From Kineococcus radiotolerans SRS30216 = ATCC BAA-149 (GTDB taxonomy: Bacteria; Actinomycetota; Actinomycetes; Actinomycetales; Kineococcaceae): 32,000 nucleotides of DNA. The position numbers and the translations under genes are program-made. The notes under the pieces are model-generated. The model ran no database searches, had not been told where the DNA came from, and saw nothing but the letters and a program-made list of their open reading frames with translations. Position 1 is the stretch's first letter, and every line of letters starts with the position of its first letter. Where the stretch lies: assembly GCF_000017305.1 (NCBI RefSeq), contig NC_009664.2, forward strand, positions 1,440,001-1,472,000, written 5' to 3'. Shown here one piece after another: positions 1-13,796 of the stretch.

Positions 1-253
1 CGGGATCACCTCGATCCCGACCCTGGTCGCCTACCGCGACGGCATCCCCGTCTTCGGTCAGCCCGGCGCCCTCCCCGCTCCCGCCCTGGAGCAGCTCATC
101 GAGCAGGTGCGCTCGCTGGACATGGACCAGGTGAAGCGCCAGTACGCCCAGGCCCTGGAGCAGGAGCAGGCCAAGCAGCAGGCGCAGGCCGCGCAGGCCC
201 AGGCCGCCCAGCGCCAGGGCGTGCGCGCGGGGACGGACCCCGCCGCGTTCTGA
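1..253 (+). CDS. thioredoxin-family protein, C-terminal part (5' end outside window)
   Basis: Frame 2 reads GITSIPTLVAYRDGIPVFGQPGALPAPALEQLIEQV..., matching the C-terminal strand/helix pattern of the thioredoxin fold. A Q/A-rich tail follows. TGA at 251-253, followed by a strong hairpin. Confidence 0.6.
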   Translation, partial: GITSIPTLVAYRDGIPVFGQPGALPAPALEQLIEQVRSLDMDQVKRQYAQALEQEQAKQQAQAAQAQAAQRQGVRAGTDPAAF

Positions 254-270
254 CCGACCCGTCACCAGGA

Positions 271-297
271 GACCCCGCACCGCTCCGGTGCGGGGTC
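271..297 (+). terminator. intrinsic-terminator-like hairpin after the thioredoxin-like gene
   Basis: gaccccgcaccg (271-282) / ctc / cggtgcggggtc (286-297) forms a perfect 12-bp GC-rich stem, 18 nt after the stop codon. The U-tract is weak (ttcc). Confidence 0.6.
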
Positions 298-375
298 TTC
301 CTGCGTCCGGGGCCGTGGACCCGCGGGCGCGCACTTTCGTCACCCTGATCGGGTCACCCGTGACGGGAACGGCGG

Positions 376-642
376 GTGCCTGCTCCGATCGGTGGCTGGA
401 GGTGCGGCACCGGTGGACCCGGGGCAGCGTGGTCCCCGTTCCACCTCCGTCGTCCCCGGGAAGGACCCCTTCCGGTGCTCACCGTCCTGCTCTGCACCGT
501 CTCCGTCGTCGCCGCCGTCTGCGCCGCGATCCGCATGGAGGCGTGGTTGTCCACCGCCCCGCCCGTCCCCGCCGCGCGTGGGCGGGCCCAGACCGACGCC
601 GCGCGGCGCGACGCCGCCACGGCGGGTCGTCCCGCGCGCTGA
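376..642 (+). CDS. hypothetical small membrane protein (start uncertain; GTG at 475 is plausible)
   Basis: From about 475 onward almost every codon ends in G/C (gtg ctc acc gtc ctg ctc tgc acc gtc tcc gtc gtc gcc...). One hydrophobic helix, LTVLLCTVSVVAAVCAAI. I recognise no homology. Confidence 0.3.
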   Translation: MPAPIGGWRCGTGGPGAAWSPFHLRRPREGPLPVLTVLLCTVSVVAAVCAAIRMEAWLSTAPPVPAARGRAQTDAARRDAATAGRPAR

Positions 643-668
643 CCGAGCAGCGGTCCGCGGAACCGACC

Positions 669-1376
669 TCACGCGGCCAGGGTCACCGTGGGCCGCAGCA
701 GCGAGCGCAGGACGAGGAAGTTCGTGAGGCCCACCAGCCCCGTCACGACGTACACCACGACCAGCCCGCTCGCTCCGCTGGCCCCCGGGACGAGGTGGTG
801 CCAGGCGGCCAGCGCGGCCGTGCTGAGGACCAGCCCCACCACCGCCGCCGCTCCCCCGGCCCCGTGCCCCTTGAACCACGCCGTGGAGCGCCCCCCGGGG
901 AACGTGAACCGGCGGTGCAGCTCGTTGGTCACCAGCGTGGAGAGCACGACCGCCACCACGTTCACCGCCACCACCGGCACCACCGCCCACGCGGACAGGG
1001 CCAGGAACACGGCGGCGTGGGCGACGTTGCCGGTGAGACCCGCCAGCACGAACCGCCCCAGCGTCCACACCCGCGCCACCCGCTCGCGCCGGGCGAGGAC
1101 GGGCGGAGCCGGCGGCGAAGGTGCGGTGCAGGTGATCACCACGCCAGTCTGCCCACCGGGGTAGCGCACCGCGTCGTCCGCGGGGACCGTCTCCGGCTCA
1201 TCCCGCTGCCGTACGTGTCGTCCCGCCGCCTCCCCCGGAGGGTGGACCGCAGGGAACCCACGCGGGGCGAGTTCGGCGGAACGGGAGAGCGCCCGCCGTG
1301 GTCCGGAGGAGGCAGTCGATCCGCGGCGGGGTGCGTCGGGGTGCGGATGCGTCCCCTCGAAAGCGTTGATCTCCAT
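669..1376 (-). CDS. GtrA-family membrane protein with an N-terminal extension (start uncertain)
   Basis: The C-terminal ~135 aa has four hydrophobic helices and GtrA-like motifs (RFVLAGLTGNVAHAAVF...; ...GLVGLTNFLVLRSLL). ATG 1376 is the first start after an in-frame stop. Internal GTGs near 1137 are alternative starts. Confidence 0.6.
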   Translation of the reverse strand: MEINAFEGTHPHPDAPRRGSTASSGPRRALSRSAELAPRGFPAVHPPGEAAGRHVRQRDEPETVPADDAVRYPGGQTGVVITCTAPSPPAPPVLARRERVARVWTLGRFVLAGLTGNVAHAAVFLALSAWAVVPVVAVNVVAVVLSTLVTNELHRRFTFPGGRSTAWFKGHGAGGAAAVVGLVLSTAALAAWHHLVPGASGASGLVVVYVVTGLVGLTNFLVLRSLLRPTVTLAA

Positions 1377-1664
1377 GGCGAACCGTCGGATGTCGTCGTC
1401 ACCGTCGTGGTCGTAGCAGTCGATCAGCCTGCGTCGACACGGCGACCAGCGCCCATCAGTTCGACCACCGGTTCGTGCTGCCCTCGACGGTGCCGGTCAC
1501 GCCGACCACTGCATCGGCTCGACGTCAGCGCGGCGCTGCGTGGTGCCAGCCTTCGGCCGGGCGAGAGGGGACGGAAAATCACTCCGGCGGACAGACGATC
1601 GGAGGCGTCGACCCCGGGGCGGTGACGCCTCGTCGTCCCCGCCGAGATCCAGGATGCGCGGTGA

Positions 1665-1850
1665 TCAGCGGTTGCCCTGCAGGATTCGACGCAAGCGCTC
1701 TCGCCAGCCCGAGGGTGTGTATGCAGGGCAGGCTTCCGGCCCGCACCAGCCGCAGTCAGAACCCTTGCGGTAGTGCTCGTGGGCGTCGGCGGGGTGCCCG
1801 CACCGCGAGCAGAGGCAGTGTCGCGCACCCATGAGGAGAGCTTGACGCAT
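1665..1850 (-). CDS. small Cys/His-rich (zinc-ribbon-like) hypothetical protein
   Basis: 61-aa ORF with CLCSRCGHPADAHEHYRKGSDCGWCGPEAC (7 Cys, 4 His in paired CxxC/CxxxC-like spacing). GC3 is roughly 75-80%, lower than core genes. Confidence 0.4.
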   Translation of the reverse strand: MRQALLMGARHCLCSRCGHPADAHEHYRKGSDCGWCGPEACPAYTPSGWRERLRRILQGNR

Positions 1851-1941
1851 CTGGTCGGTGCAGGCTCGACGAGCGTGTTCGACGCAGGATCACAGGATCA
1901 GTTGCGCTCGCCCCTCGACGGGGGACACGCACGATGGCCCC

Positions 1942-2235
1942 ATGACGGTGGAGACCAGGCCGCGACCGATCGCCACGCCATCGCGCGCTTCGTCGCCGAC
2001 CGCGCCCGGACGAGCCAGCGCCCTCGGCCCCGGAAGGCCAGGAGCGCGGCGGCAGCCACAACGGTTTCCCACCCGCTGCCACCAGGCCGTTCACGAGCAT
2101 CACGAGGTGACGGCTGACAACCTGGCCCACGCTTTGCTGGAGCTCGCCCTGCAGCACCGGGAGCGACTGGACTTCAAGACCGCCTGGCGGGAGTGGCAGC
2201 GGGTCGGCCCTGCGCTCGAGGACGGCGCGACGTAG
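1942..2235 (+). CDS. hypothetical protein (only the C-terminal ~45 codons are well supported)
   Basis: Codons 2101-2232 have near-uniform G/C third positions (HEVTADNLAHALLELALQHRERLDFKTAWREWQRVGPALEDGAT). Upstream, the GC3 signal moves to another frame (1960-2045), so the 5' part is ambiguous or frameshifted. Confidence 0.25.
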   Translation: MTVETRPRPIATPSRASSPTAPGRASALGPGRPGARRQPQRFPTRCHQAVHEHHEVTADNLAHALLELALQHRERLDFKTAWREWQRVGPALEDGAT

Positions 2236-2493
2236 CGCGAGGAGTCAGGCACCCCTGCGATCACCCTGGGTTGGCGGCGGCATGCAGTCAGTGACAGGAC
2301 TTCGCGTGAACCGCCCCACGATCATGCTTTCCCGCTCTAAGGTCCGAATCAGGCCGCCGACGGGGGCTTCCGGTCAGACCAACCTAGGAGAGCACGTGGC
2401 TCATCCGACCCAGCCGATGCCTGCTCCTGCCCCGGGAAGGCGACGCTGGTACCGCCTGCCCGGGTCATCGGCCCGGCTGGCCTCATCCTCGGT

Positions 2494-2841
2494 GTGCTCA
2501 TCGGCAGCGGTTCCGCCGGGGACTCTGAAAGTGCGGTCGCGACAGCGCCCCCTTCGCCCACTTCGACCATCACGGTGACCCAGACCAGCGCCCCCTCGCC
2601 GGCGGTGACCGTGACCGAGCAGGCCCCCGCCCCGGCTCCGACGACCATCACCATCACTACGACCGCCGAGCCGGCCGTAGAGGTCCCGACTGCAGCCGAG
2701 CCCCTTTCCGAGGCACCCAGCTCGGTGTACTACGCCAACTGCAGTGCAGCTCGCGCCGCTGGCGCGGCACCGCTCCGGACGGGGGATCCTGGATACGCCT
2801 CGCACCTCGACCGTGACAGCGACGGCGTCGCTTGCGAGTGA
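2494..2841 (+). CDS. excalibur calcium-binding domain protein (probably frameshifted at its 5' end, see findings)
   Basis: The C-terminus YYANCSAARAAGAAPLRTGDPGYASHLDRDSDGVACE is the excalibur (DxDxDGxxCE) domain. It is preceded by a T/P/A-rich linker. Confidence 0.7.
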   Translation: MLIGSGSAGDSESAVATAPPSPTSTITVTQTSAPSPAVTVTEQAPAPAPTTITITTTAEPAVEVPTAAEPLSEAPSSVYYANCSAARAAGAAPLRTGDPGYASHLDRDSDGVACE

Positions 2842-3056
2842 CGACCTGAGCGGAACGGCCTTGTCGCTCGATGCCCCATCCTGATGGGGATGGAGCTCCT
2901 GGCCGGTCACCCTGACGACTGGTGGGGCGGTCACGACTAGGACCTGTGGTGGACCTACCTCACCCTAGGGCGGCACGGGGCGTCGTCCGTGGCACGAACG
3001 TGGCACGCCCCCCGCTCCGGGAGGGAGCGAGGCCCGTGCATTCCGTTGTCTCAGTT

Positions 3057-3099
3057 GTGGGCCCCCAGGGGATCGAACCCTGAACCCGCGGATTAAAAG
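3057..3099 (-). repeat. displaced 3' fragment of tRNA-Lys (distal att repeat of the islet)
   Basis: gtgggcccccaggggatcgaaccctgaacccgcggattaaaag is identical over 43/43 bp to 6573-6615. The flanking bases differ on both sides. Confidence 0.9.
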
Positions 3100-3181
3100 A
3101 GCGGGGAGAGGTGTCCGGTGGGGTCCGCGGAGGGCGGCTGACCTGGGGTGACGGTGCGCCGGCGTGCGGGGGAGCGGGGCG

Positions 3182-3213
3182 GCTGCCGTCGCGTTGCCGT
3201 CACGGCTGCCGTC
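3182..3213 (+). repeat. three direct copies of GYTGCCGTC (candidate arm-type recombinase sites, left end of islet)
   Basis: gctgccgtc 3182-3190, gttgccgtc 3193-3201, gctgccgtc 3205-3213. The same motif occurs twice at 6502-6524. Confidence 0.4.
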
Positions 3214-3463
3214 AGGACTGGATGCCTGTGCAGTAGCAACTACCCCCAAGTAGGCCATGCCGAAAGCAACGGGCTTGGACGTGGGTCCAAGGTCATGGGC
3301 CTTGGTAGGGGGCAGGGGCCGCCGGCGGTCATGGCGACCGTGGCGCGAGCGTCAAAGGAACGTGACCTACGGACGAGTGGTCAAAGTCTGGAGTGTCAAC
3401 CACATCCACACTCGAAGGGCGCCGAGCCATGGGCTCCCTCAGTGACGTCCTGCACTTAATGCT

Positions 3464-3495
3464 TTGCGGTGCAGAGCATTTGCGGTGCAGAGCAT
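3464..3495 (+). repeat. perfect 16-bp tandem duplication ttgcggtgcagagcat x2, followed by two further TGCGGT copies (to 3532)
   Basis: 3464-3479 equals 3480-3495. ctgcggtag lies at 3496-3504 and ctgcggtgcc at 3522-3531. Confidence 0.7.
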
Positions 3496-3666
3496 CTGCG
3501 GTAGCCGTCACATGTGGGTGACTGCGGTGCCAGCGTTCAGACGGCACGTGCGTCGCCGGCCTGCGAGCTCCGTGTGACGCTGCCCTCTTGCCGGCAAGGT
3601 GACCCGCCGCTTCCCCCTGTGACCCACGACAGCCGAGGTGCACTCGTACCTCTTGACGGCTCGTCC

Positions 3667-3697
3667 TCTTCTTGGAAGACTACGACATCTTGAAGAT
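3667..3697 (+). promoter_or_regulatory. two TCTTG(G)AAGA palindromic elements upstream of the nuclease gene (candidate operator)
   Basis: tcttggaaga 3670-3679 and atcttgaagat 3687-3697, 30-57 nt upstream of GTG 3727. ttgacg at 3652-3657 could be a -35 element. RBS gagga at 3716-3720. Confidence 0.25.
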
Positions 3698-3726
3698 GCG
3701 GGCTTCGATCGCGCAGAGGAGCAGTT

Positions 3727-4167
3727 GTGGCTGATCAGTATGCACACGAGTGCCGCATCCGTGACGCCTACTCGCAACGCCTGAGGGAATTTCGCCCCAA
3801 GGAGCGAATGCTCAATACGGAGCATCCCTATGCCAATGGTCGATTACGTGCAGACCTGCGAACGATCGATGATGAGGGCGTCCGCCGCATATGGGAGTTC
3901 AAAATTTCTGCCGGCTATGGCGCACTGGGTCAGATTCTGACCTATCTGGCGCAAGCCAGAAAGGATGCGCTTTTCGAGTCGACTGTACGCGGAGTTCTTG
4001 CCGCCTTTCACTTCCATCAGGAAGTGTGGACGACGGTTGAAGTACTAAACCTCGGCATTGAATTAGTAGTTATTCCTGAAAAGTTGAGCATGGCCGGTGG
4101 CGTGCTCAGTCCACCGACGGGCTTCCGTGCCCCCCAAATTCCTAAGCTGCCTCCGGCTTCATCCTGA
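3727..4167 (+). CDS. stand-alone NucS/DUF91-like PD-(D/E)xK nuclease
   Basis: 146 aa from a GTG start with RBS gagga 6 nt upstream. Ordered motifs: E8, D43 (RADLRTID), E57-x-K59 (IWEFK), Q69-xxx-Y73 (GQILTY), then VRGVLAA. This matches the pattern ...D(I/L)L..D..G..v.iE.K......v.Q.l.Y......vRGilvA of NucS-type nuclease domains. Confidence 0.65.
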   Translation: MADQYAHECRIRDAYSQRLREFRPKERMLNTEHPYANGRLRADLRTIDDEGVRRIWEFKISAGYGALGQILTYLAQARKDALFESTVRGVLAAFHFHQEVWTTVEVLNLGIELVVIPEKLSMAGGVLSPPTGFRAPQIPKLPPASS

Positions 4168-4190
4168 CCCAAAACCCAAGAAAGGCAATC

Positions 4191-5693
4191 ATGGCGATCC
4201 CATCGATCCCCAAGAACCAACTCATCCCCAATGATCAGATTCCTCGGAGTGACCTTTTCGGTGGACTTCGGATCGTTCGGTATCAGGCTGATCCGGCAGC
4301 ATGCGATGCCTTCAATCAGAACCGGTATGAGTTCCAGTGGGAGCAGGAGGAGCGACATGTCATTCCAGGGGCCACGCTTGCAGTTAAGGGGGCCCCTTCG
4401 AACTATCGGATCACAGCTATGATCCATCCGACCTTGAAGCAATTCATAGATATCGTGAAATATGACCCTTCTGCGCCCCCTATCGAGGACTATGAGGCTC
4501 TCGAGATGAAGGATGCGCACGATCAGACGCAGCAAGATTTCAAGGGGGCCAAGAAGGAGAACCTGGCAAACTTCAAGCAGTACAACGTCGAGGCGGTACG
4601 GGGTGACCGTATTGCCTACCTGCCACCTATTAGTGGGTGGCAATCAAGTGTCGTATTCGATGAAACGATCTTTGTGGCATTCGATGAGCCTAGCGACCTG
4701 GTCCTATATGGGCAGTTGTATCTGCCTAAGAGTCCGGTCATGCAATCGGATGGCCAGACGCAGACGGCGGCCTTGTTTCAGGCGGCTCAGACTGGGATTG
4801 CCATAAAGTCTGGCGCTCTCAAGCGATTCGGCGTCACAATGGAGATCGAACTCAATGTCACGTCCGAAAAGGCCGCGCAGAGCTTCGCCGACCGCAATGG
4901 GCGCGGGTCAAAGAAGAATAAAAACCTCGTGGCAGTCATGGACAGTTCTTCGGCGTTGGCAAAGCTTCGCGGTCAGTCCATTCAGGGAACCATTTTTGAC
5001 AAGCGACTCGCTGACGGGCGGACGGTGGGCGCAACCGAAACTGCCACCAAGAACATCGTGGACTTGTCCACCATGGATCAAATGCTACTGAACGTCGTCT
5101 CGCGCGGAAGTAAGAAGCCCGAGCAGATCAAGCACTACCACGTCCAGCACCTGCTTCCCTTCTGTCGAGATTTCATCGAAATGCTAGAGGGGCAGTTCGG
5201 CAGTGCATGGCTAGACCCGACCCCCAAGGACAGTGAACCCTATCGCCGCATTTATGTTCACGGGTGGGCTTTCGCGCTAAAGGCGTTGGCGCTGGCGTAT
5301 CACGACGTTCGGCGAAGTGAAATCCATCCATATGCCACGTCCATCGGGACGACGGGCATGGACGAGCACACTACGGCCGAGGAGGCCGAGGCGGCTTTCC
5401 TTAAGGCTGTTGCGGATGCACCTTCGGCAACGTCCGTCCTCAGTGTCGCTGAGTTCGAGGACAGGTTGGGGCAGATTGACTGGCTTCGTTACCGGAAGCA
5501 CTGGATTGCGCTGACTGGCTACAAGTTGGATAGGTCGGGAAGTAAGAAGCGTCGCGAGATCAAGGACGGCGCCTCGAAGAAGGTCATCGTTGAAGGAAAG
5601 GCTGAAAATACAGCTGCCGCCATCAACAGTGTCGTGAGAAAGATCCTCTCAGACACTTGGACTGACCTCACGCACCATGAAGACGAGAAGTAG
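4191..5693 (+). CDS. DndB-like DGQHR-domain (ParB/Srx-fold) protein, motif variant DGQTQ
   Basis: 500 aa from an ATG with RBS gaaagg, 23 nt after the nuclease gene. DGQTQ at residues 187-191 (nt 4749-4763), preceded by YGQLYLPKSPVMQS. Downstream AAQSFADRNGRGSKKNKNL resembles the conserved (F)aDlN...v segment of DGQHR/DndB proteins. G+C is roughly 50-55% by eye. Confidence 0.65.
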   Translation: MAIPSIPKNQLIPNDQIPRSDLFGGLRIVRYQADPAACDAFNQNRYEFQWEQEERHVIPGATLAVKGAPSNYRITAMIHPTLKQFIDIVKYDPSAPPIEDYEALEMKDAHDQTQQDFKGAKKENLANFKQYNVEAVRGDRIAYLPPISGWQSSVVFDETIFVAFDEPSDLVLYGQLYLPKSPVMQSDGQTQTAALFQAAQTGIAIKSGALKRFGVTMEIELNVTSEKAAQSFADRNGRGSKKNKNLVAVMDSSSALAKLRGQSIQGTIFDKRLADGRTVGATETATKNIVDLSTMDQMLLNVVSRGSKKPEQIKHYHVQHLLPFCRDFIEMLEGQFGSAWLDPTPKDSEPYRRIYVHGWAFALKALALAYHDVRRSEIHPYATSIGTTGMDEHTTAEEAEAAFLKAVADAPSATSVLSVAEFEDRLGQIDWLRYRKHWIALTGYKLDRSGSKKRREIKDGASKKVIVEGKAENTAAAINSVVRKILSDTWTDLTHHEDEK

Positions 5694-6455
5694 GCGCTCA
5701 TGACGCCTCATTGAGTCGGCATCCTGCGGTGGTGGGGTCGAGACCGGCGCGCCAGCGCCGCAGCTCGGCCCCACCACCGCAGTCTTGAAGGGGTTCCAGA
5801 AGACGCACAGCTCGCGTCCGACCGTTGTGATGCCTTCGGTGGCGTTGCCCGGTGGCAACCCGGCTCGCTTGGCCGTCGCGTGCAACTCGCTGCGGTCGTA
5901 GACGTCCTCAACGACGTACGCGCCATCGGCAGGTACCGGCGCCATGTCGCGCGACTCATCAGCCCCGGAGAGCTGCAGGCGCTGCAGGAAGTGTTTGAGC
6001 GCAGGCGGCTCGCGCATCGTCCGGCACAGCACGTCGATGGCGGACGTGCGGAAGGACGGGTCGTCACGCATCAGGTCGTAGACGTCCGGATGCAGGCCTC
6101 CTCGCAAGTCACCCTTCTTGACGGCGTCACGTGGCCTGCCGGGGGGAAGGGGCTGCCCCTGCAGCTCCCACCACGACGTCGCACGAAGAGCTGCCCAGGG
6201 CAGAGCCGGATCCGGCTGCGTGCTTGCGACCGCGAAGGGACGCAGCAGGCTCTGCAGCTCCGGTGCCGCCGCCGAGTAGCTCTCGAGGCGCGGCAACGCT
6301 TTCACCGCGCGGCTGATCGCTCGCAGCAGGACGACCTGCTGGTATACGGCCGCCACCCCGGTCTGGCGGTCGACGCGGAGGTCGCGCAGCTCAGAGAGGA
6401 GTCTTGCTTGCTTCGAGTGCTCCGCGGCCATGATCCTTTTGTAGCTGAAAGCCAC
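5649..6455 (-). CDS. SBD-like/winged-helix DNA-reader module protein related to the N-termini of ScoMcrA-type HNH restriction enzymes; apparently truncated (no nuclease domain)
   Basis: The N-terminal ~165 aa follow the pattern I recall for this family: L..LR..r..G....(H)KPlLLL.Ai.RA...l.r....a..eL..LL..f.......p..P(F/W)aaLr.d..WeL ... g.L.pdv..l...dP.l...a...L. Observed here: VYQQVVLLRAISRAV, LPWAALRATSWWEL, GGLHPDVYDLMRDDPSFRTSAIDVL. Protein-like sequence ends near FWNPFK (about nt 5785). The remaining ORF runs through the hairpin into the low-GC cassette and overlaps the convergent gene by 45 bp. Confidence 0.5.
   Translation of the reverse strand: MAFSYKRIMAAEHSKQARLLSELRDLRVDRQTGVAAVYQQVVLLRAISRAVKALPRLESYSAAAPELQSLLRPFAVASTQPDPALPWAALRATSWWELQGQPLPPGRPRDAVKKGDLRGGLHPDVYDLMRDDPSFRTSAIDVLCRTMREPPALKHFLQRLQLSGADESRDMAPVPADGAYVVEDVYDRSELHATAKRAGLPPGNATEGITTVGRELCVFWNPFKTAVVGPSCGAGAPVSTPPPQDADSMRRHERLLLVFMVREVSPSV
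5724..5782. terminator. long hairpin (14-bp perfect inverted repeat) just downstream of the DGQHR-type gene
   Basis: ctgcggtggtgggg (5724-5737) and ccccaccaccgcag (5769-5782) are exact reverse complements. The 31-nt spacer contains ggcgcgcc. The hairpin starts 31 nt after the TAG at 5691-5693. Confidence 0.4.
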
Positions 6456-6501
6456 GACATCGATCCCCCCATGAGAGCAGCGCGGGCGGGGCGTCGACGG
6501 G

Positions 6502-6524
6502 CGTTGCCGTCAACCGTTGCCGTC
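6502..6524 (+). repeat. two direct copies of GTTGCCGTCA (candidate arm-type sites, tRNA-proximal end of islet)
   Basis: gttgccgtca at 6502-6511 and 6515-6524, 49-72 bp from the att core at 6573. Confidence 0.4.
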
Positions 6525-6572
6525 AGAGGGAGTGCGGTACAAGATCACGCGACATCGTCGCAGGTCAGGAGG

Positions 6573-6615
6573 GTGGGCCCCCAGGGGATCGAACCCTGAA
6601 CCCGCGGATTAAAAG
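6573..6615 (-). repeat. tRNA-proximal att repeat (within tRNA-Lys)
   Basis: Identical to 3057-3099. It spans from the anticodon loop (cttttaatc) to one base past the discriminator. Confidence 0.9.
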
Positions 6616-6646
6616 TCCGCTGCTCTGCCGATTGAGCTAGAGGCCC
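6574..6646 (-). tRNA. tRNA-Lys (anticodon UUU)
   Basis: The reverse complement GGGCCTCTAGCTCAATCGGCAGAGCAGCGGACTTTTAATCCGCGGGTTCAGGGTTCGATCCCCTGGGGGCCCA folds as a 73-nt cloverleaf. It has a 7-bp acceptor stem with one G-U pair, anticodon loop CT-TTT-AA, and T-arm GGTTCGATCC. CCA is not encoded (CCC follows). Confidence 0.95.
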
Positions 6647-6713
6647 CGGACCCGTGGGGGTCCGGGGCCATCATCGCAGACTGCCCCGTCGGGGCTCCAC
6701 CGACCGAGGCGCC

Positions 6714-8150
6714 TCAGGAGTCGAGGTTGGCCATGACGTGCTTGACGCGGGTGTAGTCCTCGAAGCCGTACATGGACAGGTCCTTGCCGTAGCCGGACTG
6801 CTTGAAGCCGCCGTGGGGCATCTCGGCGACGAGGGGGATGTGGGTGTTGATCCAGACGCAGCCGAAGTCGAGGGCGGCGGAGACGCGCATGGCGCGGCCG
6901 AAGTCCTTGGTCCAGACGCTGGAGGCGAGGCCGTACTTGGTGCCGTTGGCCCAGCGGACCGCTTCGTCCTCGTCGGTGAAGCGCTGGACGGTGATGACGG
7001 GGCCGAAGATCTCCTCCTGGACGGCTTCGTCGTCCTGGCGCAGCCCGGACACGACGGTCGGCTCGTAGTAGAAGCCCGAGGCGAGCTGCCCCGCCGAGCG
7101 GGAGCCGCCGGCGCCGAGGACGGCGTGGTCGGGGAGGCGGTCGACGAAGCCGGAGACGTGGGCGAGCTGGTTGACGTTGTTCACGGGACCCAGGGCGGCG
7201 TCGTCGTCGTCGGGGAGGCCGACCTTGGTGGCGCGGGCCTGCTCGGAGAGGGCGGCGACGAAGTCGTCGTGCAGGCGGGGAGCGACGAGGACGCGGGTGG
7301 CGGCGGTGCAGTCCTGGCCGGCGTTGAAGTACCCGGCGCCGGCGATGGCTTCCGCCGCGGCGGCGACGTCGGCGTCGTCGAAGACGACGACGGGCGCCTT
7401 GCCGCCCAGTTCCAGGTGCACGCGCTTCACGTCCTTGGCCGCGGACCCCGCGACCTGCATCCCGGCGCGGATGGAGCCGGTGATGGCGACGAGCTGGGGG
7501 GTGGGGTGCTCCACCAGCGCCCGGCCCGTGCCGCGGTCGCCGCACACCACGTTCAGGACCCCGGGGGGCAGGACCTCGTTGGCGACCTGCGCGAGCAGCA
7601 CCGTGGAGGCGGGGGTGGTGTCGGAGGGCTTGAGGACGATCGTGTTCCCGGCGGCGAGCGCGGGGCCGATCTTCCAGATCGCCATCATGAACGGGTAGTT
7701 CCACGGCGTGACCTGCCCGACGACCCCGATGGGTTCGCGGCGCACCCAGGAGGTGTGCCCGGCGAGGTACTCCCCCGCCGCGCGTCCCTCCAGGACGCGC
7801 GCGGCGCCGGCGAAGAAGCGGAGCTGGTCCACCGCGGGGGGCAGTTCCTCGCTGCGGGTCAAGCCGACGGGTTTGCCGGTGTTCTCCACCTCGGCGGCGA
7901 TGAACTCCTCGGCGCGGTCCTCGACGGCGTCAGCGAGGTCGAGGAGGAACTTCTGCCGGTCCGCGGGGGTGGTGCGCCGCCAGGAGGTGAAGGCGTCGGA
8001 GGCGGCGGTGTAGGCGGCGTCGACGTCGGCGGCGGAGGACACGGGGGCGGTGGCGTAGACCTGGCCGGTGGCGGGGTTCACGACCTCGCTGGTGGCCCCG
8101 TCGGCCGCGTCCCGCGACGCACCGGCGATGACGTTCTGGAACTGCTTCAC
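6714..8150 (-). CDS. aldehyde dehydrogenase, gamma-aminobutyraldehyde dehydrogenase-like
   Basis: 478 aa. ALDH motifs [15 protein letters not shown] (catalytic Glu), [11 protein letters not shown] (catalytic Cys) and EEIFGPV. GTG start at 8150 overlaps the upstream TGA (GTGA). Confidence 0.9.
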
Positions 8151-9682
8151 GGCGTGACTTCTCCTTCGAGCTCGACGGACGTGGTGCGGCCGCGGGCGAT
8201 GGTCTCGCCCCGGAAGAACCCGGGGCGGGCCCGGTACTGGAACAGCATCACGACGACCCCCAGGGCCAGGACCCCCACCCCGAGCAGGAACACCAGCCCG
8301 ATGCCGAAGAGCTGCGAACCCGACCCGTACTCGGGGTCGGTGGAGTCGACGGCGGTCTGCACGAAGAACACCAGCAGCAGGACGCCCCCGACCAGGGGCG
8401 CGAGGCAGCGGGACAGGAACGTCTTGACGTCCCCGCCCCAGCTGCCGCGGAAGTACCAGACGCAGGCGAGCGCGGTGATGCCGTAGTAGAAGCAGATCAT
8501 CATGCCGAGGGCGGAGATGGTGTCCCACAGCACGTCCTCGGACACGACGCGCATGCCGGCGTAGAAGGCGGAGGCGATGACGCCGGCCACGACGGTGGCG
8601 TACCCCGGCGACTGGAACCGGCGGCTGACCTTCGCGTACCGCGGCGGGAGCGCCCCGTAGTGGCCCATGGCGAGCATGGTGCGGGTCGGGGAGATGAACG
8701 TCGACTGCAGCGACGCGGCGGAGGAGGCGAGCACCGACAGCGACATGAGGACGGCGACGGGTCCCATGACCGGGCCGGCGAGGGCCACGAAGATGTTCTC
8801 CTGGATGTCGGCGTTGCCCAGGCCGAGGCCGGTGTCGCCGGTGCCGGAGTAGGACAGGACGGCGAGCGCGATCGTCAGGTAGAGGACGACGATGGCGACG
8901 ATGGTCCCCACGGCCGCCTTCCCGGGGGTGGTGCGGGCCCCGGAGGTCTCCTCGTTCATGGTGAGGACGACGTCCCAGCCCCAGTAGATGAACACGGACA
9001 GGGAGATGCCGGCGGCGAAGGCGGAGAAGGACTCCACCCCGAGGGGGTTGAACCACTGCGGGTCGACGGCCAGGCCGGCGGGGGCGCTGCCGTCGGCGGT
9101 GTGGACGAACGCGGCGATCGCGAACCACAGCAGCACGACGACCTGGAAGGCGACGAGGACGTACTGGACGACCTTGGTGGCCTCCATGCCGCGGTAGGAG
9201 ATCCAGCAGGCCAGGGCCATGAACACCAGGCACGTCGTGACGTTGACGACGACGTTCGTGGTGAGGTCGGCGATGGATTCGCGGCCGGTGAGCTGGGAGA
9301 GCATGAGGTAGAAGAAGTCGACGGCGACGCCGGCGAGGTTGGAGAGGACGAGGACGGTCGCGGCCAGCAGGCCCCAGCCGCCCATCCACCCGATCCAGGG
9401 CCCGAAGGCGCGCGAGCTCCAGGTGAACGTCGTGCCCGCGTCGGGCATGGCGCTGTTGAGGGCGCGGTAGCCCAGCGCGACGAGCAGCATGGGCACGAAC
9501 CCGACGAGGAAGATGGCGGGCAGGTGCTCCCCCACCTCCGAGGCCGTGGGGCCGAGGGCGCCGGTGAGGGTGTAGGCGGGGGCGATGGTGGAGATGCCGA
9601 TGACGATGGAGCCGAGCAGGCCGATCTGCCCCCGGGCGAGCCCCTTGGACTCCCGGGCCTGCTGCTCGGGCGCGGCGGTCAC
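8147..9682 (-). CDS. APC-family amino acid/polyamine permease
   Basis: 511 aa with about 12 hydrophobic helices ([16 protein letters not shown]..., [18 protein letters not shown]...). GTG 9682 overlaps the stop of the upstream gene. The upstream part of the 627-aa track ORF is Arg/Pro junk. Confidence 0.9.
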
Positions 9683-10527
9683 GACAGGCCCCGCGGCACG
9701 ACGACGACGGGGACGGGCACGTGCCGCAGCATGCGGGCCGCGGTCGGCCCGAGGAACGTCTGCCGGCCCTGGGCGAGTCGTGACGACCCGAGGAGCAGCA
9801 GGCCCTCGGGGGCCCAGTCGATGGAGTCCACTGCCTCTGCCATGGTGCGTCCTCGTCCCATCTCCACGGTGACCTCCGCTGCACGGGAGCGGGTCCGGAC
9901 GTCCTCGACGAGGGCGTCGATGAGCCGGCGCACCTCGGCGACGGCGTCGCCGTCCACTCCCGCGTGCTCGTCGAGCTCGACGAGGCTGACGACGTGCAGG
10001 GGCAGACCGGTCCGGGCCGCCGCCTCCCACGCTTCCTCCAGCACGGCCGGCGCACCCGGGCGGGCGCCGACCGCGACGTACAGCTGATCGATCCGGGCCG
10101 GTGGTTCGCGCCGGGGCACCAGCACCACGGGCAGCGGTGCGGAGTGCAGCAGGGTGCGCGCGACCGGGCCGACCCCGAAGGGGATCGCTCCCCCGCCGGC
10201 CCCGACGACGACGGCGGCGGCGTCGAGCTCCGCGGCCGCGTCGAGGAGGCCCTCGGGCACGGACCCCGCGGTGCGGACGTGGGTCCGGACCGCGACGTCG
10301 CCGGGCAGGGCCGCGACGGCTTCGTCGAGCCAGCCCCGGGCCTGCTCGGCGATGACGCCGGTGACGTCGCCGACGGGCGGGTAGGGGCCGCCGAAGGGGT
10401 CGTCGGTGCGCACGACGACCACGACGTCGAGCTCGACGCCGAGGGAGCGGGCGAGGACGGCGCCCCAGCTGAGGGCGTCCCGCCCGCGGTCGCCGCCGTC
10501 GAAGGCGACGACGTAGCCGCCGCTCAC
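9679..10527 (-). CDS. tandem-domain universal stress protein (UspA family)
   Basis: 282 aa. Two USP-like halves each end in a G-x-x-G...S-containing segment followed by PV(V)VVP ([26 protein letters not shown]; LLLLGSSRL...[19 protein letters not shown]). Confidence 0.85.
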
Positions 10528-11915
10528 GCCGTGGCCCGGGTGAGGGCTCCGGCGACGTCGGCGGCGGCGTCGCGGCCGGAGCGGAGGGCTCCGTCGACGT
10601 GCTGGTAGCCCTCGGCGGCGAGGTCGGAGCAGGCCCAGTGGATGGGGCCGACGGGGGTGCGCTGGTCGGCGCCGTAGCGGGCGAGCCCGCCGAGGTCGAA
10701 GCTGGCGGCGTAGGCGCCGCGGGTCCACTCCTCGCTGGCCCAGTCGGACTCGTAGTAGACGTCCGGTTCGAGGGCGCGCTCGCCGAGGAACGCGGCGATG
10801 GAGGCGAGGACGCGCGCCTTGCGCTCCTCGGCGGGCAGGGCGAACACGGCGTCGGCCTTCTCGTCGGAGACGAAGGCGACGAGGGTGCCGCGGTCGTCGC
10901 CGTGGAAGGTGTTGTCGTAGACCTCCTGCACCAGCGTGGAGGTGCCGAACCCGGTGCCGGACAGCCCGTCCTCGCGCCAGAACGGCGTGGGGTAGACGGC
11001 GTGGACCTTGATGACCAGGCCCATGGAGAGGTGCTGGTGCATCTGGTGCTGGCGGCGCGGCAGGGGCGGGTCGTAGCTGATGCGGGAGAACAGCGGCGGC
11101 GGGACGGCGACGACGACGCGGCGGGCGCGGACGGTGACGCGGTCGGACTCGACGACCACGCCCTCCTCGCCGCCGTCGCCGAGGCGGCGGATCGTGCGGA
11201 CCGGGGTCGACAGGTGGACCCGGTCGCCGAGGTCGGCGGCGAGGCGCTCGGAGACGGACTGCATGCCGCCGACGACGCGGCGGTCGAGGATGAAGCACTC
11301 GTCGGTGAGGTTGGTGAACGACCCCGCCGAGGCGGCCATCAGCACGGCCTGCAGGGTGGAGAACGCGTGGGGGGGTTTCGTCAGCATGGCGCCGGCGATG
11401 AAGAGGGCGATGGTCGTGCACGCCTCCTCGTCGTCGGACTGCTGCCGCAGCCAGTGGTGGAAGGAGATCGTGTCGAGCTCCAGGGCGCGCGGGTGGGCCC
11501 AGGGCTCGCGGGCGCCGACGGAGGCCACGAGGTCGTCCATGAGCTCGGTGAGCCGGTGGATCTCCTTGGCCGTGGAGTCGGCGACGGGGAAGGTGTCGCC
11601 GCGGTAGCGGGTGCGGGTGCCGTCGGGGGCGATGTGGACGGAGTCGCCCTCGCGGTAGCGCTGGTACGTCTGCATCCCGAGCTCGTCGAGCAGGCCGAGG
11701 AGCTCGGTCTGGTCGGGCGAGATCCACTGGCCGCCGATCTCCAGGGGGACGCCGTCGTGCTCCTCGGTGTGGGTGCGGCCGCCCACGCGGTCGCGCGCTT
11801 CGAGGACGACGACGTCGTGGCCGGCGCGGGTGAGGTGGCGGGCGGTGTTGAGCCCCGCGGGTCCGGCCCCCACCACCACGACGTCTGCGGTCAGTTCGGT
11901 TCTTGCGGAGTGCAC
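10524..11915 (-). CDS. flavin-containing amine oxidase, putrescine oxidase-like
   Basis: 463 aa. FAD dinucleotide fold [12 protein letters not shown]...[11 protein letters not shown]. The pattern is typical of actinobacterial putrescine oxidases ([26 protein letters not shown]). GTG start with RBS gggagg. Confidence 0.9.
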
Positions 11916-12016
11916 GGGACCTCCCGGGTCGTCGTCGGCCGAGCCACCACCTAAAGTGATTGGGCTTCATTAATGGCCCGTGCGCAGGTGCTGTCAAGGG
12001 TCCGGGAGGGATTCGC
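11916..12016. promoter_or_regulatory. divergent promoter/operator region between the amine-oxidase operon and a TetR gene
   Basis: The only AT-rich patch is ctaaagtgattgggcttcattaatgg (11951-11977). It contains the perfect 8-bp palindrome cattaatg (11968-11975). Confidence 0.35.
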
Positions 12017-12733
12017 GTGCGTCAGGATGAACCGGTGGCCCCCAGCCGGCAACCGTCACGGCCCGCCCCCCGCCGCCCGCGGGGCCGGCCCAGCAACCCG
12101 CTGCTCACCGTGGACGGCATCACCGCCGCCGCGGTGCGCCTCCTGGAGGAACGCGGCCAGGACGGGCTGACGATGGCCGCGCTGGCCCGGCGCCTCGACG
12201 TCGCCCCCTCCGCGCTCTACAACCACGTCGCGGACAAGCAGGACGTCCTGCGCGCGGTCCAGGACCACGTGAACGCGGGGATCGACTGCTCCGCGTTCGG
12301 CGTCCTGCCCTGGGACGAGGCGCTCGCCGCGTGGGCGCGCTCCTACCGCGACGCCTACGCCCGCCACCCGGCGCTGGTGCCGGTCATGGCGGTGACCCCG
12401 GTGCGCAGCGCCCCGCACACCGTGGCCATGTACGAGCGGGTCAGCGCGGGCCTCACCGCCGCGGGCTGGCCCGGGCACCTGGTGACCAACGTCGTCGTCG
12501 CCGTGGAGTCCTTCGTGCTCGGCTCGGCGCTGGACACCCAGGCGCCCGAGGACATCTTCGACCCCGGTGACCTCGCCGCGGCCGCGCCCGCCTTCGACGC
12601 CGCCAACCGCGCCCGCCCCGGCGGGGACACCGCGCTGGCGGCGTTCGAGGTGGGGCTGCAGGCGCTGCTGACCGGGCTCCGCGTCCTGCGGGCACCCGGT
12701 AGCGTGCCCGGCGAGGAGAGGAGGACGCCGTGA
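12017..12733 (+). CDS. TetR/AcrR-family transcriptional regulator
   Basis: HTH segment LTMAALARRLDVAPSALYNHV. GTG 12017 with RBS gggagg 7 nt upstream is preferred over the TTG at 11960 (same frame). The stop overlaps the next gene (GTGA). Confidence 0.8.
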   Translation: MRQDEPVAPSRQPSRPAPRRPRGRPSNPLLTVDGITAAAVRLLEERGQDGLTMAALARRLDVAPSALYNHVADKQDVLRAVQDHVNAGIDCSAFGVLPWDEALAAWARSYRDAYARHPALVPVMAVTPVRSAPHTVAMYERVSAGLTAAGWPGHLVTNVVVAVESFVLGSALDTQAPEDIFDPGDLAAAAPAFDAANRARPGGDTALAAFEVGLQALLTGLRVLRAPGSVPGEERRTP

Positions 12734-13773
12734 AGGCTGTGACCGTCCACGCCCCCGGGGACCTGCGCGTCGAGGAGGTCGACGCACCGGAACCCGCCCC
12801 CGGCGAGGTGCTCGTCCGGATCGTCTACGGCGGCATCTGCGGCTCGGACCTGCACTACGCCGCCGACGGCCGCAACGGGGCCTACGTCGTCACCGAACCC
12901 CTGGTGCTCGGGCACGAGGTCGTCGGGGTCGTCGAGCGCGCCGGCCCGGACACCCCCGCGGCCCCGCCCGCGGGCACCCGGGTCGCCGTCCACCCCGCGA
13001 CCCCCTGCGCCCCCGCCGGCGCCGCGGCCCCCACCGGGTTGCACCTGCGCCCGGGCGGGACGTACCTCGGCAGCGCCTCCACCCACCCGCACACCCAGGG
13101 CGGGTTCACCGGTCTGCTCGCCGTCGGGGTGGAGCGGCTGCGGGAACTGCCCGCCGCCCTGCCGCTGCGGCGCGCGGTCCTCGCCGAACCCCTCGCGGTG
13201 GCCCTGCACGCGGTCGGGCGGCTGGAGGGGCGCGTCGCCGGGGCGCGGGTCCTGGTCAGCGGCGCCGGGCCCATCGGGGTGCTGGCCGTGGCCGCGCTGA
13301 AGCGGGCGGGCGCGGCGCACGTCACCGCCGCCGACCTCCAGGAACTGCCGCTGCGGGTCGCCACGGCCGTCGGCGCCGACGAGGTCGTCGACCTCTCGCG
13401 CGGCGGGTCGCTGCCCGAGGCCGGGTTCGACGTCGTCGTGGAGGCGGCCGGGGTCGTCCCGTCGCTGCTGGCGGCGATCCGCGCGGTGCGCCCGGGGGGT
13501 TCGATCCTGCAGCTCGGCATCCTGCCCGCCGGTCCGCAGCCCGTCCCGGTCGGTGAGCTGCTGTCCAAGGAGGTCGCGCTGTTCGGGACCCAGCGCTTCG
13601 ACACCGAGCTGGACGCCGCCGTGGAACTGCTCGCCGCCGACGACTCCCTCGACGCCGTCGTCACCGACGTGTTCGGGATCGAGGACGCCGCCGCGGCCTT
13701 CGCCCGGGCCCGGGACTCCGCGAACTCCTCCAAGACCGTCCTGCGGATCACCCCGGACCCCGACGACGCCTGA
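12730..13773 (+). CDS. zinc-binding MDR dehydrogenase (L-idonate 5-dehydrogenase/sorbitol dehydrogenase-like)
   Basis: 347 aa. YGGICGSDLHY, GHEVVGVV and Rossmann segment VLVSGAGPIGVL. Confidence 0.85.
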   Translation: MKAVTVHAPGDLRVEEVDAPEPAPGEVLVRIVYGGICGSDLHYAADGRNGAYVVTEPLVLGHEVVGVVERAGPDTPAAPPAGTRVAVHPATPCAPAGAAAPTGLHLRPGGTYLGSASTHPHTQGGFTGLLAVGVERLRELPAALPLRRAVLAEPLAVALHAVGRLEGRVAGARVLVSGAGPIGVLAVAALKRAGAAHVTAADLQELPLRVATAVGADEVVDLSRGGSLPEAGFDVVVEAAGVVPSLLAAIRAVRPGGSILQLGILPAGPQPVPVGELLSKEVALFGTQRFDTELDAAVELLAADDSLDAVVTDVFGIEDAAAAFARARDSANSSKTVLRITPDPDDA

Positions 13774-13796
13774 TCCCCCTCGGCCCCCGCCCCGCG

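What the first reader, a model, noticed from the sequence alone, without database searches (positions are those of the whole stretch)
3057..6615. 3.56-kb integrase-less islet in tRNA-Lys(UUU) bounded by a perfect 43-bp direct repeat
- Segment 6573-6615 covers the tRNA from the anticodon loop to one base past the discriminator. It is repeated 43/43 at 3057-3099.
- The bases immediately outside differ (3056 t versus 6572 g; 3100 a versus 6616 t).
- The intact tRNA's 3' end points into the interval, and the orphan fragment lies at the far end. This is the classic geometry of site-specific integration into a tRNA 3' half.
- I can see no tyrosine- or serine-recombinase-like ORF in any frame inside or beside the interval. 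The element is therefore either a decayed island, the residue of a tandem array, or a satellite mobilised in trans.
- The interior is compositionally mosaic. It is high-GC at 3100-3640 and 5790-6570, and low-GC at about 3650-5700.
Basis: seen in the sequence. Interest (0 to 1): 0.7.

Follow-up and report, generated by a model that had tools for sequence, protein, structure and literature searches.

The report
Integrase-less defence islet in tRNA-Lys
A 3.5-kb piece of foreign DNA sits in the lysine-tRNA integration site of Kineococcus radiotolerans, keeps both attachment ends but has no integrase, and carries defence-type genes; this is an ordinary decayed mobile island, though it is delimited here with unusual precision.

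Summary
tRNA-Lys(UUU) lies at 6572-6646 on the minus strand, and its 3' 43 nt (6573-6615) recur 43/43 at 3057-3099.

The window comes from the Kineococcus radiotolerans SRS30216 chromosome. A second strain of the species (GCA_014191015.1) has the same backbone on both sides. Similarity to the window stops exactly at the two repeat copies. Between them that strain carries an unrelated 18.9-kb element with a tyrosine integrase, where the window has the 3,473-bp islet. This shows the interval is a site-specific integration product at a reusable attachment site.

The islet has no recombinase, and none lies within about 10 kb on either side. It does keep short direct repeats (GYTGCCGTC) on both sides of the core. 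The sister-strain element and a viral contig with the same core place their own repeats in the same layout.

The cargo has three parts:
- a conserved low-GC gene pair (a small nuclease-like protein and a 500-aa DndB-family protein), found together in 6 of 6 other loci examined, on islands and prophages in other bacteria;
- a sulfur-binding-domain gene that is probably truncated;
- a strong hairpin between the convergent genes.

Verdict: a decayed, CIME-like (cis-mobilizable element) integrative islet. It is a new member of a known kind. Mobility was not tested.

The parts
6572..6646 (-). Intact tRNA-Lys(UUU). Its 3' 43 nt are the proximal copy of the att core (attL-type junction).
   Evidence: ARAGORN. 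Rfam RF00005, 67.6 bits. The sister-strain backbone matches the window from 6572 rightwards at 98.96%.
6573..6615 (.). Proximal 43-bp core copy, covering tRNA position 32 to one base past the discriminator.
3057..3099 (.). Distal orphan 43-bp core copy (attR-type junction).
   Evidence: 43/43 identity. The sister strain has the same orphan copy with the same outer flank. Window 1-3099 matches L229 11131-8036, and similarity ends at 3099.
6503..6524 (+). Two direct GTTGCCGTC copies, starting 70 and 57 nt before the first base of the core. Candidate arm-type (P-arm) integrase-binding sites.
   Evidence: 7 matches in the window against 1.6 expected, 5 of them flanking the core. The layout matches L103 and sister element X. 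Binding is inferred, not shown.
3180..3214 (+). Three direct GYTGCCGTC copies with a 12-nt period, 83-106 nt inside the distal core copy. Candidate P'-arm sites.
   Evidence: Tandem Repeats Finder reports 12 nt x 3.0 copies. Layout comparison.
6560..6568 (+). GCAGGTCAG, ending 4 nt before the core. A core-proximal motif shared with the other two elements that use this core.
   Evidence: It is the only copy in the 32 kb on either strand. L103 has GCAGGTCAGCAGG starting 23 nt before its core. Sister element X has GCAGGTCAGC next to its distal core copy.
3137..3148 (+). GCTGACCTGGGG. It contains the inverted copy of CAGGTCAG and lies 38 nt inside the distal core copy.
   Evidence: It is the only exact copy in the window. 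The same 12-mer sits in the equivalent arm and orientation of sister element X, at L229 7977-7988.
3463..3502 (+). Tandem repeat of 16 nt x 2.5 copies (TTTGCGGTGCAGAGCA) in the non-coding GC-rich left end. Function unknown.
   Evidence: It was not found upstream of homologous cassettes elsewhere.
3727..4167 (+). ORF1, 146 aa. A small protein with an invariant D43...E57-x-K59 motif (PD-(D/E)xK-like). First gene of the low-GC cassette.
   Evidence: Aligns at 56% and 45% identity to the partner genes in Kribbella and an enterobacterial island. Weak NucS hits. Lies directly upstream of the ORF2 homologue in 6 of 6 loci. The single-sequence AF2 model was unusable, pLDDT 40.
4191..5693 (+). ORF2, 500 aa, DndB-family (DGQHR/ParB-like superfamily) protein with invariant QSDGQTQTA. 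Second gene of the cassette (ABS02331).
   Evidence: Pfam DndB E 3e-5 and TIGR03187 E 2.6e-4, both below the curated cut-offs. All 15 of 15 family members hit PF14072, best E 3.7e-12. Homologues at 50-71% identity occur across phyla. AF2 pLDDT is 80.5 with no PDB fold match.
5724..5782 (.). GC-rich stem-loop with a 19-bp outer stem between the convergent ORF2 and ORF3. It is terminator-like and lies inside the ORF3 reading frame.
   Evidence: The 117-nt fold has a free energy of -70.6 kcal/mol, z = -6.5.
5649..6455 (-). ORF3, 268 aa (ABS02330). It has a ScoMcrA-type DNA sulfur-binding domain at about residues 15-165, then an orphan tail. Probably a 3'-truncated gene with no nuclease domain.
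   Evidence: NF045808 E 2e-6, matching profile positions 4-127 of 284 only. Precomputed PF26340 hit. The closest relative, P0242 (461 aa), aligns only to residues 19-174. All 133 relatives among 1.84e9 representatives align within residues 14-205.

Best explanation
The interval is the remnant of an integrative element. That element entered the 3' end of tRNA-Lys(UUU) by tyrosine-integrase recombination across a 43-bp core, and later lost its integrase and any transfer or replication genes. It kept both junctions. In mobile-element terms this is a CIME-like element (cis-mobilizable element: attL and attR retained, integration and transfer genes lost).

Shown:
- The site is a real, reusable attB.
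- The islet's limits coincide exactly with the two core copies.
- The islet is absent from a conspecific strain.
- It carries no recombinase.
- It keeps element-specific short direct repeats on both sides of the core, in the same layout as two integrase-bearing elements that use the same core.

Inferred:
- The GYTGCCGTC repeats are arm-type binding sites of a lost or distant cognate integrase.
- The sulfur-binding-domain gene (ORF3) was truncated when the low-GC two-gene cassette (ORF1-ORF2) was acquired or rearranged.
- The element is now immobile on its own. It could move only if a compatible integrase acts in trans, or if an incoming element integrates next to it and the composite excises.
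- Its present role for the host is most likely defence-related: a PD-(D/E)xK-like protein with a DndB-family ParB-like protein, plus a remnant of a phosphorothioate-DNA reader.
For: **Identity of the genome.**
- ORF2, ORF3, the aldehyde dehydrogenase and GtrA are the SRS30216 proteins ABS02331, ABS02330, ABS02329 and ABS02334.

**Site polymorphism.** The comparison strain is GCA_014191015.1, contig JACHVY010000001.1.
- Window 6572-18149 matches L090 at 98.96%, and similarity ends at the tRNA 3' end.
- Window 1-3099 matches L229 at 95.4%, and similarity ends at the inner edge of the orphan copy.
- Between these two points that strain has 18,866 nt. The genes include a tyrosine integrase, HTH, HTH_17, Prim-Pol, AIPR and SRA-HNH.
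- That element has no blastn or tblastx similarity to the islet.
- No islet protein has a cluster member at 90% identity or above from that strain.

**A third user of the same core.**
- The viral contig L103 has an integrase gene ending 3 nt before an exact copy of the 43-bp core.

**Arm-type layout** (0 = first base of the core).
- Islet, GYTGCCGTC: -70, -57 | +125, +136, +148.
- L103, CTGCCCCA: -89, -78 | +160, +171. That is 4 matches against 0.23 expected, all flanking the core.
- Element X, GCGGAC: -113, -92, -68, -57 | +152, +163, +174.

**No recombinase.**
- for the interval and window.
- for the flanks.

**Decay and mosaic structure.**
- GC content is 0.67 / 0.55 / 0.68 across the islet against a backbone of 0.75.
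- ORF3 homology stops at or before residue 205, and the closest relatives are 461-734 aa.
- A -70.6 kcal/mol hairpin lies inside the ORF3 frame.

**Cargo is itself mobile.**
- The ORF1-ORF2 pair is conserved in Kribbella, in an enterobacterial island at tRNA-Leu next to its integrase, and in four IMG/VR contigs.
- One of those contigs places it next to P2-type tail genes. Another places it next to T5orf172/DUF4041 and DUF4145 genes.

**Definition of CIME.**
- PMC5704250 and PMC6323972.
Against: - No remnant of an integrase, excisionase, relaxase or replication gene was detected in the islet, so descent from an integrase-bearing ancestor is inferred rather than seen.
- In the two comparison elements the left arm repeats lie inside the 3' end of the integrase gene. 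In the islet the same position is non-coding, with only about 117 nt before the divergent ORF3. A deletion would therefore have had to be very tidy.
- The two core copies are still 43/43 identical, and the arm repeats are intact. This fits recent or still functional att sites as well as it fits decay.
- Stand-alone sulfur-binding-domain proteins of 150-170 aa exist, so truncation of ORF3 is likely but not proven.
- No empty attB allele was recovered.
Confidence: 0.72

Rival explanations
1. The islet is a functional integrase-less satellite. It was never autonomous, or it has been streamlined. It is integrated and excised in trans by a helper integrase that recognises the GYTGCCGTC arm sites and the tRNA-Lys core, encoded on a phage or integrative element elsewhere in the genome or arriving transiently.
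For: - The core copies are perfect 43/43.
- Both sets of arm-like repeats are intact and in the same orientation.
- The core-proximal CAGGTCAG motifs are shared with integrase-bearing elements that use the same core.
- There is no trace of a decayed integrase gene.
- The size is very compact at 3.5 kb.
Against: - No helper was identified. The two integrase-bearing elements found at this core use different arm motifs, GCGGAC and CTGCCCCA.
- No second copy or relative of the islet ends was found in viral contigs, metagenome contigs, plasmids or phages.
- ORF3 looks truncated and the centre is a foreign cassette, which points to decay rather than streamlining.
Confidence: 0.15
2. The islet is the residue of a tandem array. 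Two elements once sat head to tail at tRNA-Lys, the integrase-bearing one excised precisely, and the non-autonomous neighbour was left between two core copies.
For: - The site is demonstrably reused by different elements.
- Tandem accretion at tRNA genes, including tRNA-Lys, is described for IMEs and CIMEs (PMC5704250).
Against: - The only other strain examined has a single occupant, not a tandem.
- The same arm motif occurs at both ends of the islet. Both ends therefore derive from one attP, and the islet is a complete att-to-att unit rather than a leftover half.
- This scenario also still needs the islet to have been an integrase-less or decayed unit, so it overlaps the main explanation.
Confidence: 0.1
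3. The islet is not a mobile element. The 43-bp fragment is a conserved tRNA pseudogene or a local duplication, and the interval is ordinary chromosome.
For: There is no integrase, and no empty site was recovered.
Against: - A conspecific strain replaces exactly this interval with an integrase-bearing element bounded by the same 43-bp copies.
- GC content is 0.55-0.68 against 0.75 for the backbone.
- The cargo genes have their nearest relatives in other phyla and on mobile elements.
Confidence: 0.02

Closest known systems
CIMEs (cis-mobilizable elements), e.g. those accreted with ICESt3 in Streptococcus thermophilus. Definition taken from PMC5704250 and PMC6323972.
   Same: The islet is flanked by attL and attR at the 3' end of a target gene. 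It has no integration or transfer genes. It sits at a site that autonomous elements also use.
   Different: The host is a high-GC actinobacterium. No related autonomous parent element was identified. The incoming elements seen at the same core use different arm repeats, so mobilisation in cis is uncertain. No transfer experiment exists.
tRNA-targeting actinobacterial integrative elements and temperate phages with lambda/L5/pSAM2-type attP, meaning a core flanked by arm-type integrase sites. This comparison rests on my own knowledge of these systems.
   Same: The core equals the 3' part of a tRNA, so the gene is restored on integration. Short direct repeats lie 50-130 nt on both sides of the core. 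The same design is seen here in sister element X and in viral contig L103.
   Different: The islet has no int or xis gene. In X and L103 the left arm repeats lie within the 3' end of int, whereas in the islet that stretch is non-coding.
Defence cargo at the variable ends of prophages and islands, such as the P2-type hot spots. This comparison rests on my own knowledge; the context is seen in L225.
   Same: The ORF1-ORF2 pair sits next to an integrase at an island end in enterobacteria. It sits next to tail gene gpD in a P2-like prophage. In another viral contig it sits beside T5orf172/DUF4041 and DUF4145 genes.
   Different: The pair matches no PADLOC v2 model at E <= 1 for ORF2. No phenotype is known.
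ScoMcrA-type type IV restriction enzymes (SBD-SRA-HNH) and Dnd phosphorothioation systems with DndB.
   Same: ORF3 has the sulfur-binding domain. ORF2 belongs to the DndB superfamily.
   Different: ORF3 lacks SRA and HNH domains. ORF2 has DGQTQ in place of DGQHR and is 500 aa. No dndCDE or dndFGH genes accompany it.

Membership tests
Site-specific (tyrosine-integrase type) genomic island in a tRNA gene | Bounded by a direct repeat that duplicates the 3' part of the tRNA, with the intact gene at one end | tested here: met
   43/43 repeat, with the intact tRNA-Lys at the right end.
Site-specific (tyrosine-integrase type) genomic island in a tRNA gene | Presence/absence or alternative occupancy among close relatives, with breakpoints exactly at the repeats | tested here: met
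   The sister strain has the same flanks and repeats but a different 18,866-nt occupant. An empty allele was not found.
Site-specific (tyrosine-integrase type) genomic island in a tRNA gene | Encodes its own integrase next to one att site | tested here: not met
   No recombinase domain in any ORF tested. No tblastn hit with two integrases that use this site.
Site-specific (tyrosine-integrase type) genomic island in a tRNA gene | Composition differs from the backbone | tested here: met
   GC content is 0.55-0.68 against 0.744-0.751.
CIME (cis-mobilizable element) | Retains attL and attR | tested here: met
   The core copies are identical, and arm-like repeats lie on both sides in the layout of functional relatives. 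Recombination competence was not tested.
CIME (cis-mobilizable element) | Lacks integration and transfer genes | tested here: met
CIME (cis-mobilizable element) | Derived by decay from an ICE, IME or prophage | tested here: inconclusive
   ORF3 truncation and the mosaic GC content suggest decay. No relic of int, xis, relaxase or rep was found, and no parent element was identified.
CIME (cis-mobilizable element) | Can be excised or transferred together with an element integrated next to it | not testable with these tools
   This needs mating or excision assays.
Phage satellite (PICI/P4-like) | Own integrase, replication/primase module and helper-exploitation genes | tested here: not met
   None of these is in the islet. 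The sister-strain element X, by contrast, has int, Prim-Pol and a weak Terminase_7 hit.
Dnd phosphorothioation system (DndB as its regulator) | DndB-family protein encoded with dndCDE (and dndA, dndFGH) | tested here: not met
   ORF2 hits DndB and DGQHR only below the curated cut-offs. No dnd genes appear in the islet or in the annotated 10-kb flanks. In 6 of 6 loci its partner is the small ORF1 protein instead.
ScoMcrA-type type IV restriction endonuclease | Sulfur-binding domain | tested here: met
   NF045808 E 2e-6 at profile positions 4-127. Precomputed PF26340 hit.
ScoMcrA-type type IV restriction endonuclease | HNH (or other) nuclease domain C-terminal to the reader domain | tested here: not met
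   Residues 206-268 match nothing in 1.84e9 representatives. There is no HNH hit.

The most novel reading that the evidence does not exclude
The islet may be a live, minimal, integrase-less hitchhiker whose intact core, arm repeats and CAGGTCAG sites let a helper integrase move it between tRNA-Lys sites. In that case its ORF1-ORF2 pair (a PD-(D/E)xK-like protein with a 500-aa DGQTQ DndB-family protein) would be a so far unnamed anti-phage system. The pair is conserved from Actinobacteria to Enterobacteria and sits in prophage and island hot spots. The probability given is for both parts being true together. The defence role of the gene pair taken alone is more likely, roughly 0.4.
Probability: 0.12. 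Interest if true: 0.55.

Novelty: new member of a known kind. Interest (0 to 1): 0.3.

Why it matters
It gives a cleanly delimited attachment site (attB/attP) for Kineococcus: a 43-bp tRNA-Lys core used by at least three unrelated elements, each with its own arm repeats. That is useful for annotating islands in high-GC actinobacteria, and possibly for integration vectors. It also shows how a defence-type gene pair can persist in an integration hot spot after the vehicle has lost its integrase. Finally, it flags an uncharacterised two-gene module that is widely transferred and worth a phage-challenge test. None of this overturns current understanding.

Tried and rejected
**Searches for relatives and an empty site**
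- A genome-contig scan with the adjacent aldehyde dehydrogenase returned only paralogues or orthologues at 76% identity or less, with no tRNA-Lys nearby.
- Other Kineococcus species (L092, L093) have the dehydrogenase in a different context, so they give no empty site.
- A metagenome scan for the predicted empty-site junction found nothing, and so did a scan for arm-plus-core.
- Scans of viral contigs with the full core and with a shorter core found only L103.

**Arm motif and islet ends**
- The arm-pair pattern is too unspecific in viral contigs. Most hits are coding repeats with spacings that are multiples of 3.
- blastn of the whole islet against plasmids and phages gave only a Sinorhizobium ORF2 homologue and a tRNA match.

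**Cargo proteins**
- The AF2 model of ORF2 (pLDDT 80.5) has no PDB fold match at E below 1, and its profile has no PDB sequence match.
- The single-sequence AF2 model of ORF1 was unusable.

**Other checks**
- The plus-strand ORF 5880-6599, which ends in the core, was considered as a possible integrase relic and rejected. It has no domain hit, and the minus-strand frame carries the real homology.
- The Kineococcus radiotolerans plasmids could not be retrieved from the plasmid collection under four accession numbers guessed from memory.
- Exact-protein look-ups for the left flank in the sister strain failed three times. A cluster member, P0249, then gave access to it.

Full report
**1. The observation**

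ARAGORN finds one tRNA in the window, tRNA-Lys(UUU) at 6572-6646 on the minus strand. Rfam agrees. The repeat finder reports 3057-3099 and 6573-6615 as 43/43 identical. The repeated segment runs from tRNA position 32 to one base past the discriminator. No further tRNA fragment is present in the 32 kb.

The compositional mosaic is real. The backbone is 0.744-0.751 GC. Segment 3100-3650 is 0.672, 3651-5700 is 0.550, and 5701-6572 is 0.679. Even the 'high-GC' ends are therefore below the backbone.

**2. Where the window comes from**

The interior and flanking proteins are identical to Kineococcus radiotolerans SRS30216 proteins:
- ORF2 = ABS02331
- ORF3 = ABS02330
- aldehyde dehydrogenase = ABS02329
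- GtrA = Krad_0846

These lie on the 4.76-Mb chromosome. Short-read assemblies of 20 or more runs contain the islet as a 3,533-nt contig. That length equals the 3,473-nt interior plus 30 nt of each repeat, which is what a k=31 graph gives at a repeat.

**3. The decisive comparison**

A second K. radiotolerans assembly, GCA_014191015.1, carries both flanks on one contig.
- Window 6572-18149 aligns to L090 at 98.96%, and the alignment stops at the tRNA 3' end.
- Window 1-3099 aligns to L229 at 95.4%, and the alignment stops at the inner edge of an identical orphan 43-bp copy.

Between these two points that strain has 18,866 nt, counted from the record coordinates. This segment encodes a tyrosine integrase reading towards the tRNA. 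It also encodes an HTH regulator, an HTH_17 protein, an 891-aa Prim-Pol, an AIPR protein, a DDE transposase fragment and an SRA-HNH enzyme.

This element, called X here, has no nucleotide or translated similarity to the islet. The sister strain has no protein at 90% identity or above to ORF1, ORF2 or ORF3.

So the same attB, with the same 43-bp duplication, holds alternative occupants in two strains. The islet's limits are exactly those of an integration product. A truly empty allele was not recovered.

**4. No recombinase**

Pfam, NCBIfam, PADLOC and PHROGs scans of the islet ORFs tested give no integrase, excisionase, relaxase or replication hit. The scans covered the frames in the GC-rich ends and the plus-strand ORF that ends in the core. 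tblastn with the X integrase and with the L103 integrase finds nothing in the window.

Annotated flanks show housekeeping genes only:
- Left: pta-ackA, thiamine genes, aldo-keto reductase, LmeA, thioredoxin and GtrA.
- Right: aldehyde dehydrogenase, permease, Usp, amine oxidase, TetR, urease genes and others.

**5. The ends look like a real attP split in two**

GYTGCCGTC occurs 7 times in the window against 1.6 expected. Five of these copies sit next to the core copies.

One IMG/VR contig, L103, has the exact 43-bp core 3 nt after the stop codon of a tyrosine integrase gene. That integrase is 28% identical to the X integrase.

The table puts all three elements in the same orientation, with 0 as the first base of the core:

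| Element | Motif | Left of core | Right of core |
|---|---|---|---|
| Islet | GYTGCCGTC | -70, -57 | +125, +136, +148 |
| L103 | CTGCCCCA | -89, -78 | +160, +171 |
| X | GCGGAC | -113, -92, -68, -57 | +152, +163, +174 |

For L103 all four copies flank the core, against 0.23 expected. The design is the same in all three: 2-4 direct copies on each side, mostly 11-13 nt apart (up to 24 nt in X's left arm), with a different word in each element. This is the pattern expected of arm-type integrase sites. That reading is an inference from layout and from general knowledge of lambda/L5-type attP sites; binding was not tested.

In X and L103 the left copies lie inside the 3' end of int. In the islet the same stretch is non-coding.

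A second shared feature is the word CAGGTCAG.
- GCAGGTCAG lies at 6560-6568, ending 4 nt before the core, and is the only copy in the window.
- Its inverted form lies within GCTGACCTGGGG at 3137-3148, the only exact copy in the window.
- The same 12-mer occupies the equivalent arm of X, which also has GCAGGTCAGC next to its distal core copy.
- L103 has GCAGGTCAGCAGG starting 23 nt before its core.
- In L103 the word lies in the integrase reading frame. The corresponding frame in the islet is different, so what is conserved is the DNA word and not a coding relic.

**6. Cargo**

*The ORF1-ORF2 pair.* ORF1 (3727-4167, 146 aa) and ORF2 (4191-5693, 500 aa) form the low-GC centre.
- ORF2 belongs to a tightly conserved family of about 500 aa, with 50-71% identity across Actinobacteria, Bacillus, Pseudomonas and Edwardsiella.
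- The family has invariant QSDGQTQTA and QSFADRNGRGSKKNKN motifs.
- All 15 members tested hit Pfam DndB, best E 3.7e-12. The window protein itself is below the curated cut-off.
- The AF2 model (pLDDT 80.5) has no PDB neighbour.
- ORF1 has an invariant D...ExK pattern and weak NucS-type hits.
- An ORF1 homologue lies directly upstream of the ORF2 homologue in 6 of 6 other loci examined.

Those loci include:
- a low-GC island in Kribbella;
- an enterobacterial island at tRNA-Leu, where the pair abuts the integrase and an SBD-HNH gene lies 8 kb away;
- a P2-like prophage next to gpD and the sheath gene;
- a contig beside T5orf172/DUF4041 and DUF4145 genes.

PADLOC has no model for ORF2. A defence role is therefore a contextual inference. 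DndB-family proteins are ParB-like NTP-binding proteins (PMC3632139, PMC4619093 and bioRxiv 10.1101/2025.10.10.680097).

*ORF3.* ORF3 (5649-6455, minus strand) has a ScoMcrA-type sulfur-binding domain.
- Its nearest relative is 461 aa and aligns only to residues 19-174.
- All 133 relatives among 1.84 billion representatives align within residues 14-205.
- The frame then runs through a -70.6 kcal/mol hairpin at 5724-5782 and into the antisense of ORF2.

ORF3 is probably a truncated gene. Stand-alone domains of 150-170 aa do exist, so this is not certain.

**7. Interpretation**

[quoted passage not shown] It carries defence-type cargo at a hot spot. In the sister strain the same hot spot also holds defence-type genes (AIPR, SRA-HNH).

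An active satellite served by an unseen integrase cannot be excluded. The intact core, intact arms and lack of any int relic speak for it. The truncated ORF3, the foreign cassette and the absence of any relative or helper speak against it.

A tandem-array residue is possible, but the one comparison available does not support it.

**8. Verdict**

It is a new member of a known kind. Interest is modest. The useful by-products are a precisely defined tRNA-Lys attB/attP family in Kineococcus and an uncharacterised, widely transferred two-gene module.

Noticed in passing
L090 11580-21437 and L229 1-8035 (K. radiotolerans GCA_014191015.1, JACHVY010000001.1 1349753-1368618): An 18.9-kb integrase-bearing element occupies the same tRNA-Lys site in the sister strain. 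Its genes include int, HTH, HTH_17, an 891-aa Prim-Pol, a weak Terminase_7 hit, AIPR, a DDE_Tnp_4 fragment and a split SRA-HNH gene. It looks like a satellite or IME carrying defence cargo. A perfect hairpin (CATCCGTGCAGGTC AGC GACCTGCACGGATG) abuts its distal core copy.
   Followed up: partly
window 6560-6568 and 3137-3148; L229 7977-7988 and 8009-8018; L103 about 3568-3580: The word CAGGTCAG, extended to a shared 12-mer CCCCAGGTCAGC in the islet and element X, lies within about 60 nt of the core in all three elements that use this tRNA-Lys core, although their arm repeats differ. It may be a shared core-type or accessory-factor site. It remains unexplained.
   Followed up: partly
L100 1727-4697 (MAG contig JALYFR010003839.1): The only close homologue of ORF3 (P0242, 461 aa) sits directly downstream of a 504-aa protein with a Cas1 Pfam hit and near an HTH_17 gene. 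A solo Cas1-like gene in such a context might indicate a casposon-like or other mobile element.
   Followed up: no
window 1-3056 versus L229 8079-11131: The left flank is much more diverged between the two strains than the right flank: 95.4% overall, and 85.8% with indels at 501-750, against about 99% on the right. GtrA is annotated as 235 aa in the original record but 156 aa in RefSeq and in the sister strain.
   Followed up: partly
window 1377-3056: This 1.7-kb stretch next to the orphan repeat has few called genes and a GC content of 0.696 (backbone 0.75). It contains an Excalibur-domain ORF at 2494-2841 (Pfam E 4.7e-17) that the gene caller skipped in the Logan contigs but that was called as 141 aa in the sister strain (L229 8295-8720). 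The stretch is shared by both strains, so it is not part of the islet.
   Followed up: partly
L225 326-3573; L226 1335-7898; L097 7489-11747: The ORF1-ORF2 pair recurs at classic variable spots of mobile elements. In L225 it lies next to gpD and sheath genes of a P2-like prophage. In L226 it lies between a T5orf172/DUF4041 gene and a DUF4145 gene. In L097 it abuts a P4-type integrase at tRNA-Leu(CAA) in an enterobacterial island that also carries ArdC, TraI_2, Fic and an SBD-HNH gene.
   Followed up: partly
window 3463-3502: A 16-nt tandem repeat (TTTGCGGTGCAGAGCA, 2.5 copies, 95% matches) lies in the non-coding left end of the islet, 225 nt upstream of ORF1. It is not found upstream of homologous cassettes elsewhere. 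It could be an operator or an iteron relic.
   Followed up: partly
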